Assembly (NCBI GenBank): GCA_944351765.1
Contig: CALVPR010000001.1
Span: 1,591-65,590, forward strand
Direction of reading: 5' to 3'
Length of the DNA: 64,000 bases
Origin: an uncultured Bacilli bacterium
GTDB lineage: Bacteria; Bacillota_I; Bacilli_A; RF39; UBA660
A program made the translations under genes and the position numbers. Below, in pieces: positions 60,656 through 61,165 of the stretch. Position 1 is the first letter of the stretch. Each line of letters opens with the position of its first letter. The notes below the pieces were generated by a model, which was not told the origin of the DNA, did no database searches, and saw only the letters and a list, made by a program, of their open reading frames with translations.

Positions 60656-60679
60656 ATTATGTCCTCCCTAAGTAATGTT

Positions 60680-60708
60680 ATTTTAACACGATTAAAAGCT
60701 TATATCAA
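60680..60708 (-). promoter_or_regulatory. tatD promoter TTGATA-17-TAAAAT
   Basis: Minus-strand reading; ~25 nt upstream of SD. Confidence 0.4.
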
Positions 60709-60727
60709 GTAATTATAAAATTACATT

Positions 60728-60866
60728 TTGACAAAATAATTATTTTATGGTAGTATGTATATAGATGGAGGAAACTTCATATAATAAAAGAGACATTGAT
60801 TAGGATTCAATGTTTACTCGTTTTTGTGTAAACACCGAATATTATTTCGGTGTTGTTTTTTATTTG
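60728..60866 (+). ncRNA. Candidate small RNA / orphan transcription unit: strong promoter (TTGACA-17-TGgTAGTAT) to intrinsic terminator
   Basis: -35 60728-60733, extended -10 60748-60756; hairpin 60794-60812 (CATTGA-N7-TCAATG); terminator AACACCGAA-TATTAT-TTCGGTGTT + T-run 60831-60866; no credible CDS. Confidence 0.35.
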
Positions 60867-61131
60867 GTTTTAATTGCGATAATAGTATATAGAATTACTA
60901 TTAAGACAAGAACTAATAGTTCCAACACAAACCTCCTGTATAAATATTTATGCGCATTAGAACCACCTCCCTATTGTGAATTAAGGAGTAAACACCGATA
61001 TCAATATCTCTGAAATAATAGTAACACATAATTAACAAAAAGTATGTAACACATTTGTTAACATTAAAAATATTAAATAGCAATAATTACATTTCTTAAA
61101 GTTTCAAATTAAGTGTTTTTTTCTATAAAAA

Positions 61132-61165
61132 TATTAAAGCAAAAAAAAGAGATAAATTACTTATC
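61132..61165 (-). terminator. Weak intrinsic terminator after pheT
   Basis: Short GATAA/TTATC hairpin overlapping stop followed by U8 on minus strand. Confidence 0.3.

What the first reader, a model, noticed from the sequence alone, without database searches (positions are those of the whole stretch)
60728..60866. Orphan strong promoter plus strong intrinsic terminator (~100-nt unit) in an unusually long 500-bp spacer: candidate small RNA
On the plus strand there is a consensus TTGACA -35, an exact 17-nt spacer and a TG-extended -10 (TGgTAGTAT).

About 70-105 nt downstream lies a 9-bp GC-containing hairpin (AACACCGAA-TATTAT-TTCGGTGTT) followed by GTTTTTTATTTGGTTTT. This is the strongest terminator-like structure in the window, yet no plus-strand gene lies upstream or downstream.

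The only overlapping ORF (60810..61013, 67 aa) has no SD and contains the terminator in codons 8-16. Hairpin 60794-60812 and an 11-nt motif GTAAACACCGA repeated at 60828 and 60989 add structure.

The unit could be a trans-acting sRNA, a cis-antisense regulator of tatD or pheT, or the RNA antitoxin or toxin leader of a type I TA pair.
Basis: seen in the sequence. Interest (0 to 1): 0.55.

Follow-up and report, generated by a model that had tools for sequence, protein, structure and literature searches.

The report
New type I toxin–antitoxin RNA cassette
The "orphan" promoter-plus-terminator unit is a real, conserved ~100-nt structured small RNA that faces a tiny, overlooked 21-codon membrane-peptide gene on the other strand; together they look like an undescribed family of type I toxin–antitoxin cassettes common in uncultured gut and rumen Bacilli.

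Summary
The promoter (TTGACA-17-TGgTAGTAT, 60728-60756) and the terminator (60831-60854 plus U-tract) are there, and they bracket a ~100-nt plus-strand RNA.

A DNA pattern from its start retrieved about 60 distinct relatives from gut and rumen metagenomes. Their alignment supports three helices: a 5' hairpin P1, P2 and the terminator P3. 98% of cells are paired and 16 of 20 pairs show compensatory changes. G-U pairs outnumber A-C 61 to 5, which places the structure on the plus strand.

A convergent minus-strand ORF (60925..60860, AGGAGG, TTG, MELLVLVLIVILYTIIAIKTK) ends at the sRNA terminator. 52 of 63 relatives carry an equivalent 21-33-aa, very hydrophobic ORF.

Copy number is 0, 1 or 3 (tandem) at this same locus in near-identical genomes, and elsewhere the cassette sits in many contexts.

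The toxin leader carries covarying complementarity to the sRNA terminator arm and to its own 3' UTR, a fold-back lock like those of hok and aapA1.

Nothing matches Rfam, Pfam or NCBIfam, and the peptides are unannotated.

Verdict: a new family of a known kind (type I TA). Toxicity and transcripts are untested.

The parts
60718..61068 (.). Whole cassette, the unit that is duplicated in relatives
   Evidence: This stretch of the spacer occurs three times in tandem in L003 (6424-6847, 6851-7204, 7208-7622) and once in L002. It is absent from L004 and reduced to a remnant in L001. All four encode 95-97% identical PheT.
60728..60756 (+). sRNA promoter: -35 TTGACA, 17-nt spacer, TG-extended -10 TGgTAGTAT
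   Evidence: In 51 of 60 distinct relatives a -35 hexamer with at least 4/6 matches lies 16-18 nt upstream of the -10 box. The -10 box itself was part of the search pattern.
60761..60866 (+). Predicted antitoxin sRNA (~100 nt; start about 60762-60765, end within the U-tract 60855-60871)
   Evidence: The covariance model built from 43 relatives scores 85.5 bits on the + strand (60761-60862) against 31.8 bits on the - strand. MFE is -29.3 kcal/mol, z = -4.7. No Rfam family matches.
60765..60780 (+). P1, 5' hairpin AUGGAG-GAAA-CUUCAU
   Evidence: 6 pairs, 98% of cells paired, 2 pairs with compensatory changes.
60790..60819 (+). P2 hairpin (GAG/CUC base plus ACAUUGA/UCAAUGU)
   Evidence: all 6 modelled pairs show compensatory changes and 99.6% of cells are paired. 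Many U-G pairs mark the + strand as the folded one.
60831..60871 (+). P3, the intrinsic terminator (AACACCGAA/UUCGGUGUU) plus U-tract
   Evidence: All 8 pairs covary across the family.
60860..60925 (-). Candidate toxin ORF: TTG start, 21 aa (MELLVLVLIVILYTIIAIKTK), TAA stop
   Evidence: One search lists it from the GTG at 60928. In L002 that GTG is GCG, so TTG is the conserved start. Clade relatives differ mostly at codon positions 1 and 3. 52 of 63 family units carry an equivalent ORF.
60932..60937 (-). Shine-Dalgarno AGGAGG, 6 nt upstream of the TTG
   Evidence: Read directly from the sequence. Conserved in L002, L003, L050 and L090.
60913..60957 (-). Upstream 14-codon ORF (MRINIYTGGLCWNY) with its own SD GGGAGGTGG, overlapping the toxin SD and start; role uncertain
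   Evidence: Present in most clade copies. The start is lost in one L003 copy and the frame is altered in L090.
60988..60998 (-). Leader motif UCGGUGUUUAC, complementary to sRNA 60828-60838 (the 5' arm of P3 plus its flank)
   Evidence: One search shows only two copies in 64 kb. An equivalent 9-15-nt complementarity is found in 37 of 40 units (median z about -4) and covaries between subfamilies.
61000..61011 (-). 5' end of the toxin mRNA (AGAGAUAUUGAU). It copies the 5' arm of sRNA P2 and pairs with the mRNA's own 3' UTR (complement of 60789-60800)
61018..61026 (-). Toxin promoter, extended -10 TGtTACTAT; predicted start about 61011
   Evidence: Read from the sequence. An extended -10 at the equivalent position occurs in 38 of 45 distinct relatives.
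60776..61011 (-). Predicted toxin mRNA (~230 nt). It would end after the antisense-P2 hairpin and the U-tract that is the complement of the sRNA's A-rich linker
   Evidence: MFE is -66.1 kcal/mol, z = -7.15, with 5'-3' pairing. The ends are inferred, not measured.

Best explanation
The spacer holds a self-contained type I toxin-antitoxin-like cassette.

- **Toxin side.** The minus strand makes a ~230-nt mRNA (about 61011 to about 60780). It encodes a 21-aa, almost purely hydrophobic membrane peptide behind a consensus SD.
- **Antitoxin side.** The plus strand makes a convergent ~100-nt sRNA with three helices: P1, a 5' hairpin; P2; and P3, its terminator. Its last ~85 nt are perfectly complementary to the 3' UTR of the toxin mRNA.
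- **Leader elements.** The toxin leader carries two further elements that copy arms of the sRNA helices. Its very 5' end pairs with the mRNA's own 3' UTR. This fold-back lock resembles those of hok and aapA1 and should keep the primary transcript closed. An 11-nt motif in the leader pairs with the 5' arm of sRNA P3.
- **Proposed action.** The fold-back limits translation of the full-length message. The abundant sRNA forms a long duplex with the 3' UTR, and contacts the leader, so that the message is degraded (RNase III-type cleavage) or stays untranslated. If the cassette or sRNA synthesis is lost, the peptide is made and damages the membrane.

**Shown:** the sequences, the conserved helices, the conserved ORF, the covarying complementarities and the copy-number variation.

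**Inferred:** transcript ends, toxicity, nuclease involvement and the direction of regulation.
For: - **sRNA.**
  - The promoter and terminator are present.
  - Across 43 distinct homologues the three helices are 98% paired. 16 of 20 pairs have compensatory changes, with 139 double-change cells against 36 in shuffles (0 of 500 shuffles reach this). Controls with slid partners pair at only 29-46%.
  - G-U outnumbers A-C 61 to 5.
  - The covariance model scores 85.5 bits on the + strand against 31.8 on the - strand.
- **ORF.**
  - An ORF with an SD and a strongly hydrophobic 21-33-aa product ends at the sRNA terminator in 46 of 63 units by strict criteria and 52 of 63 by relaxed ones. The background rate is 0.005 per equivalent window.
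  - Variable sites by codon position are 26:10:32 in the homogeneous groups.
  - The ORF is kept across subfamilies whose nucleotide sequences cannot be aligned.
- **Toxin promoter.** An extended -10 lies just upstream of the leader in 38 of 45 units.
- **Covarying RNA-RNA contacts.**
  - The leader is complementary to the sRNA P3 arm in 37 of 40 units.
  - The leader 5' end is complementary to its own 3' UTR in 36 of 41 units.
  - All 35 predicted toxin mRNAs fold with 5'-3' pairing.
  - Fold z-scores are -7.15 and -6.25.
- **Cassette behaviour.**
  - Genomes with 95-97% identical PheT hold 0 copies, 1 copy, 3 tandem copies or only a remnant.
  - Tandem or paired copies occur on five metagenome contigs.
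  - Chromosomal neighbours are diverse.
- **Organisation.** The layout matches what the T1TAdb paper describes for Gram-positive type I families. The antisense RNA lies on the 3' side, and in Fst and SprA1 the interaction lies outside the overlap.
Against: - No transcript data exist. The ends of both RNAs are predictions.
- Toxicity of the peptide is untested. The window's peptide lacks the charged N-terminal stretch that most family members have.
- The peptides match no known type I toxin family, and the RNA matches no Rfam antitoxin.
- Whether the leader motif pairs with the sRNA or with the mRNA's own 3' hairpin is only weakly resolved (24 against 15 units, p = 0.007).
- In the largest subfamily the U-tract after antisense P2 is poor, so where the toxin mRNA ends is uncertain.
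- 11 of 63 units lack an intact ORF.
- The family was collected with a pattern that fixes the -10 box and the RNA start, so conservation there is by construction.
Confidence: 0.72

Rival explanations
1. The pair is real, but the peptide is a benign small membrane protein (a regulator or subunit) whose expression is tuned by a cis-antisense RNA. It would not be a toxin-antitoxin addiction or defence module.
For: The conserved ORF and sRNA fit this equally well. The cassettes lie in chromosomal, mostly housekeeping contexts. There are no hits in phage, plasmid or viral collections.
Against: - Presence or absence and tandem amplification vary between near-identical genomes.
- Some contigs carry several divergent copies.
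- Decayed and orphan copies exist.
- The peptide sequences diverge strongly while keeping only charge and hydrophobicity.
- The elaborate fold-back lock is typical of selfish type I modules rather than of a housekeeping subunit.
Confidence: 0.15
2. The repeat is a non-coding mobile or repetitive element (MITE- or REP-like) rich in hairpins, and the promoter, terminator and ORF are incidental.
For: It is multi-copy, occurs in tandem, sits in varied intergenic insertion sites, and some copies directly follow a tRNA-like 3' end.
Against: - Two promoters are conserved in register.
- The SD, the start codon and a hydrophobic reading frame are kept across unalignable subfamilies, against a background rate of 0.005.
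- The second codon position is the least variable.
- The G-U asymmetry shows selection on one transcribed strand.
- Terminal inverted repeats and target-site duplications were not looked for and did not stand out in the sequences read.
Confidence: 0.05
3. It is a free-standing trans-acting sRNA, or a cis-antisense regulator of tatD or pheT, and the small ORF is irrelevant.
For: The RNA is well structured, with an exposed A-rich linker. In the window it lies back to back with the tatD promoter.
Against: - The RNA overlaps neither tatD nor pheT.
- Homologues sit beside unrelated genes.
- 52 of 63 copies keep the convergent ORF.
- The leader of that ORF covaries with the sRNA.
Confidence: 0.05

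Closest known systems
Fst/RNAII (par of Enterococcus pAD1) and SprA1/SprA1AS (Staphylococcus aureus)
   Same: - These are Gram-positive type I systems.
- The two RNAs are transcribed convergently and overlap at their 3' ends.
- The overlap does not cover the coding sequence.
- Additional complementarity outside the overlap, in the toxin 5' region, comes from short repeated DNA motifs (organisation as summarised in the T1TAdb paper; the family analogue here is).
- The toxins are small hydrophobic peptides.
   Different: - There is no sequence relationship. The peptides hit no Fst-type family in Pfam or NCBIfam, and the RNA hits no Rfam family.
- The peptides are shorter (21-33 aa), and most lack the charged C-terminal tail.
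- The leader target lies 22-63 nt upstream of the start codon rather than over the ribosome-binding site.
- There are two staggered terminators (P3 for the sRNA, antisense P2 for the mRNA) instead of one shared bidirectional terminator.
- The sRNA has three helices.
hok/Sok (plasmid R1) and aapA1/IsoA1 (Helicobacter pylori)
   Same: The toxin primary transcript is predicted to be closed by pairing of its very 5' end with its 3' end. In aapA1 that folding impedes translation until 3' processing (abstract of PMC5416894). Here all 35 predicted mRNAs show such pairing. The window clade also has an overlapping upstream ORF reminiscent of mok.
   Different: In those systems the antisense RNA targets the 5' part of the mRNA, and they occur in Gram-negative bacteria. 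Here the antisense gene lies at the 3' end. The peptides are unrelated (HokA E = 0.12, far below the cut-off).
bsrG/SR4 and txpA/RatA (Bacillus subtilis)
   Same: They have a convergent 3'-overlapping antisense RNA of about 100-200 nt. From established knowledge of these systems, the duplex triggers RNase III-dependent decay of the toxin mRNA, and SR4 also alters folding around the ribosome-binding site.
   Different: Neither the RNA nor the peptide is homologous. Those toxins are longer (38-59 aa) and sit in prophage-like regions. Here no phage association was found.
Ibs/Sib (Escherichia coli)
   Same: The toxins are tiny (18-19 aa), almost entirely hydrophobic and multi-copy, and the loci were first noticed as repeats.
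   Different: Sib is antisense to the whole ORF. It occurs in Proteobacteria and shows no sequence similarity.

Membership tests
Type I toxin-antitoxin systems (the class) | A small (<60 aa) hydrophobic protein gene with translation signals | tested here: met
   The 21-aa ORF at 60925..60860 has an AGGAGG SD. Equivalents are present in 52 of 63 units, and the coding pattern supports translation.
Type I toxin-antitoxin systems (the class) | An adjacent or overlapping gene for a non-coding RNA that is complementary to the toxin mRNA | tested here: met
   The sRNA is structured and covarying. No ORF on it is conserved. It is convergent, with about 85 nt of predicted overlap plus leader complementarity. 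The overlap depends on predicted transcript ends.
Type I toxin-antitoxin systems (the class) | The protein is toxic when expressed, and the RNA neutralises it | not testable with these tools
   This needs expression experiments.
Fst/RNAII-SprA1 group | The toxin belongs to the Fst-type peptide family | tested here: not met
   Eight family peptides gave no type I toxin family hit in Pfam or NCBIfam at E up to 10, apart from HokA at E = 0.12 (12 bits, cut-off 89).
Fst/RNAII-SprA1 group | The antitoxin RNA matches the curated RNA family | tested here: not met
   An Rfam 15 scan of the spacer at E up to 10 gave only four chance-level sRNA hits over the unit, all far below their thresholds. The whole window gave no gathering-level hit.
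Fst/RNAII-SprA1 group | Convergent RNAs, with interaction outside the 3' overlap through repeated motifs in the toxin 5' region | tested here: met
   The 11-nt repeat at 60828/60988, and its family-wide covarying equivalent.
Hok/Sok, AapA/IsoA | The antisense RNA is encoded opposite the 5' part of the toxin mRNA | tested here: not met
   The sRNA gene lies at the 3' end of the ORF.
Hok/Sok, AapA/IsoA | A 5'-3' long-distance pairing locks the primary transcript | tested here: met
   This is predicted only: (35 of 35 predicted mRNAs). There is no probing data.

The most novel reading that the evidence does not exclude
The family uses a three-way RNA logic not described for other type I systems. 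The toxin leader is a paralogous copy of the antitoxin's own helices P2 and P3. Leader and antitoxin would then compete for the same partner, the toxin 3' UTR. The antitoxin would act by displacing a fold-back lock while holding the freed leader through its terminator arm. On this reading it is a widespread, previously unseen TA family of uncultured, reduced-genome gut Bacilli, with some of the shortest toxins known (21 aa).
Probability: 0.25. Interest if true: 0.7.

Novelty: new member of a known kind. Interest (0 to 1): 0.58.

Why it matters
- **A gap in what is known.** Type I TA systems are hard to find because both genes are tiny and escape annotation. Reported families come from few phyla, according to the abstract of PMC12390103. 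None of the nine family peptides tested is in a 15-billion-protein collection.
- **What this adds.** It gives a well-supported RNA family, with a covariance model and about 60 loci, and a toxin family for uncultured gut and rumen Bacilli. These organisms have no genetics and almost no known regulatory RNAs.
- **A comparative data set.** The covarying leader/3'-UTR/sRNA contacts form a natural data set for how fold-back locks and 3'-overlapping antisense RNAs combine in Gram-positive lineages.
- **Practical use.** The cassette is a marker of strain-level variation, with 0 to 3 copies at one locus. It also supplies candidates for very short membrane-active peptides.

Tried and rejected
- **Rfam.** Scans of the spacer (E up to 10) and of the whole window (gathering thresholds) found no known RNA family.
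- **Plasmids, phages, viral contigs.** blastn of the cassette against plasmids and phages, and a P1-based pattern against viral contigs, found nothing. No link to a mobile element was established.
Rejected: it is 6-67 aa long in clade relatives and absent from the protein collection.
- **A leaderless micro-ORF from the AUG in P1.** Rejected: its length ranges from 5 to 71 codons across the family.
- **A cis-regulatory leader or attenuator of a downstream plus-strand gene.** I considered this when the first metagenome hits appeared. I rejected it because what follows the terminator is the reverse complement of the hydrophobic ORF.
- **Global duplex prediction between the whole leader and the whole sRNA.** Uninformative (mean z about -1). 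Targeted tests were used instead.
- **Leader motif partner.** A test of whether it prefers the sRNA or the mRNA's own hairpin was only weakly discriminating.
- **False positives.** About 15 pattern hits were an unrelated LexA promoter, and L084, L125 and L140 were further chance matches; all were discarded.
- **Literature.** Searches found no description of a type I system in these lineages.

Full report
**Setting.**
- The window is AT-rich DNA from an uncultured gut bacterium. The closest public records are metagenome-assembled genomes (MAGs) labelled "uncultured Bacilli bacterium".
- The finding lies in the 501-bp spacer (60656-61156) between the stop of pheT (minus strand) and the start of tatD (minus strand). 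Both identities were confirmed with Pfam.

**Check of the observation.**
- The consensus scan finds the plus-strand promoter TTGACA-17-TAGTAT with an upstream TG (60728-60756). It finds a single terminator-like site in 3 kb, AACACCGAA-TATTAT-TTCGGTGTT followed by GTTTTTTATT, where 0.3 are expected.
- In my own crude scan of the whole window this terminator ranks second.
- The 11-mer GTAAACACCGA occurs only at 60828 and 60988 in 64 kb, with none expected.
- The predicted RNA (60761-60866) folds to -29.3 kcal/mol, z = -4.7.
- No Rfam family matches, either at E up to 10 in the spacer or at gathering thresholds in the whole window.

- On the minus strand an AGGAGG (60937-60932) is followed 6 nt later by TTG (60925). 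The ORF reads MELLVLVLIVILYTIIAIKTK, and its TAA (60862-60860) lies inside the sRNA's U-tract.
- The two units are therefore convergent and abut at the terminator.

**Relatives at the same locus.**
- I fetched loci anchored on PheT, which gave four genomes with 95-97% identical PheT.
- The cassette (about 60718-61068) is present once in L002 and three times in tandem in L003. It is absent from L004 and reduced to a promoter remnant in L001.
- In L002 the GTG at the position of 60928 is GCG, which fixes TTG as the start. The differences in the ORF are mostly synonymous or Leu/Ile/Val exchanges.
- A distant genome (L027, 55% PheT identity) has a decayed copy at another site.

**A family.**
- I scanned metagenome contigs with a pattern covering the -10 box and the first bases of the RNA. 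It returned 99 stretches.
- After removing an unrelated LexA promoter, about 60 distinct units remain from human gut, rumen and other animal gut samples.
- An alignment of 43 distinct RNAs (A1) gives a consensus of three helices: P1 (a 5' hairpin), P2 and P3 (the terminator).
- 16 of 20 pairs show compensatory changes.
- On the named structure 98.0% of cells pair, against 83.7% in shuffles. There are 139 double-change cells against 36 (0 of 500 shuffles reach this). Sliding the partners gives 29-46% pairing.
- G-U or U-G cells number 61 against 5 A-C or C-A cells.
- A covariance model scores the window at 85.5 bits on the plus strand and 31.8 on the minus strand.
- The plus-strand RNA is therefore the folded, selected molecule. 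The window holds one copy.

**The partner ORF is a family feature.**
- 46 of 63 distinct units meet strict criteria: an SD, a canonical start, 18-45 aa, mean hydropathy above 1, and a stop 95-160 nt from the sRNA promoter. 52 of 63 meet relaxed criteria.
- The same strict criteria give 0.005 hits per equivalent window across 2.1 Mb of the fetched loci.
- Typical products are MNKKDFLILSLVIIIFLLLFLLFIVLI, MKKRTFIVKVLRLIAIILLLLTLLVIAIKI and MKYINREKILFTLIFLLLVIIILLIILLIVR.
- Subfamilies cannot be aligned at the DNA level. They all keep the SD, the start, a short charged N-terminus, about 20 hydrophobic residues and a stop at the terminator.
- In the three homogeneous groups the variable sites by codon position are 26:10:32.
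- The peptides hit no type I toxin family in Pfam or NCBIfam. None is in the 15-billion-sequence protein collection.

**Signals for the toxin transcript.**
- An extended -10 (TGnTATAAT type; TGtTACTAT at 61026-61018 in the window) lies 6-8 nt upstream of a conserved leader start in 38 of 45 distinct units.
- The A-rich linker between P1 and P2 of the sRNA is, on the other strand, a U-tract that follows the antisense-P2 hairpin. This is a plausible terminator for the toxin mRNA (an inference).
- With these ends the mRNA is 230-283 nt. That lies within the 150-400 nt the T1TAdb paper quotes for toxin mRNAs.

**Covarying long-range contacts.**
- (i) The toxin leader holds a 9-15-nt segment complementary to the 5' arm of sRNA P3 plus its flank. 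In the window this is UCGGUGUUUAC at 60998-60988 against GUAAACACCGA at 60828-60838.
  - It is present in 37 of 40 units, with a median z of about -4.
  - The sequences differ between subfamilies: UUGGGUGGAG/UUCCACCUAA, UCAGAUGC/GCAUCUGA, GAGUGUC/GACACUC.
- (ii) The very 5' end of the leader copies the 5' arm of sRNA P2, so it is complementary to the mRNA's own 3' UTR. This holds in 36 of 41 units, with a median z of -3.5.
- Whole-mRNA folds show this 5'-3' closure in the window (-66.1 kcal/mol, z = -7.15), in L072 (z = -6.25) and in all 35 predicted mRNAs.
- Whether element (i) prefers the sRNA or the mRNA's own hairpin is only weakly resolved in favour of the sRNA: 24 units against 15, p = 0.007. 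The preference is clear in the window clade, -17.3 against -11.8 kcal/mol.

**Genomic behaviour.**
- Five metagenome contigs carry two copies, three of them in tandem.
- Neighbouring genes differ from locus to locus: topA, rnc, typA, a response regulator, an M50 peptidase, a ToxN toxin, an ISL3 transposase and a DUF4143 ATPase.
- No copies were found in the phage, plasmid or viral collections.

**Interpretation.**
- The anatomy is that of a Gram-positive type I toxin-antitoxin module. It has a tiny hydrophobic peptide, a convergent 3'-overlapping antisense RNA, extra complementarity outside the overlap as in Fst/RNAII and SprA1, and a fold-back lock as in hok and aapA1.
- It is not a member of any of those families by sequence.
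- Shown here: the conserved structures, the ORF, the complementarities and the copy-number variation.
- Inferred: the transcript ends, the toxicity and the mode of repression, which could be duplex-triggered decay, a translation block, or both.
- I file it as a new family of a known kind, with confidence of about 0.7 that it works as a type I TA pair.

Noticed in passing
window 60913-60957 (-): A 14-codon upstream ORF (MRINIYTGGLCWNY) with a strong SD (GGGAGGTGG) overlaps the toxin's SD and start, an arrangement reminiscent of mok/hok coupling. It is present in most clade copies. The start is ATT in one L003 copy and the frame differs in L090, so its role is unclear.
   Followed up: partly
window 60680-60708 (-) and 60728-60756 (+): The tatD promoter candidate (TTGATA-17-TAAAAT with TG) lies back to back with the sRNA promoter, about 20 bp apart. 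No clear minus-strand terminator separates the cassette from tatD, so toxin-strand read-through into tatD is possible.
   Followed up: no
window 60814-60828 (+): P2 of the sRNA is itself followed by GUUUUUGUG. Early termination could therefore give a ~60-nt short form. UGUUUAC (60811-60817) can also pair with GUAAACA (60828-60834), in competition with P2 and P3.
   Followed up: no
window 61043-61063 (-); L003 6854-6876 and 7211-7233; L001 ~3180-3200: A palindrome ATGTAAC-N7-GTTACAT (imperfect in the window) lies just upstream of the toxin promoter and at the junctions of the tandem copies. It is all that remains of the cassette in L001. It could be an operator or a recombination site.
   Followed up: no
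L004 6400-7680; L001 3200-4450: In two genomes with 95-97% identical PheT the region downstream of pheT differs. L004 lacks both the cassette and tatD and has an ATPase-like gene instead. L001 has unrelated reverse-strand genes. The pheT 3' flank is a variable region.
   Followed up: partly
L059 2726-4311 and L111 10773-12365: Here the cassette sits between rnc (RNase III) and a gene for a ToxN-family toxin (type III TA). In L101 it is flanked by a DUF4143 ATPase and an ISL3 transposase.
   Followed up: partly
L027 300-460: This copy is decayed. Compared with the L089 homologue (MRDLKKREYSIKLLRYISLILLLLTLLVLVIKK), the peptide frame is broken by an A-run one base shorter. The sRNA terminator is also weak (37.6 bits).
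   Followed up: partly
L043, L097, L099 (just upstream of the sRNA promoter): In these loci the cassette begins directly after a tRNA-like 3' end (GTCCCTTGGCTGGTACCA). In many others a hairpin ACGACTTGCAAAAAAGTCGT plus a T-run encloses the sRNA -35 box and looks like a bidirectional terminator.
   Followed up: no
L044, L046, L056, L058, L068, L074, L100, L126, L136, L139: The search pattern also hit a promoter upstream of a LexA-like gene (MSQGKITDKQREILEYIKE...) in an unrelated, higher-GC organism. This is a chance match and not part of the family.
   Followed up: yes
L071, L052, L069, L080, L086, L117, L138: These sRNA copies have no intact partner ORF. They may be orphan antitoxins or degraded cassettes.
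   Followed up: partly
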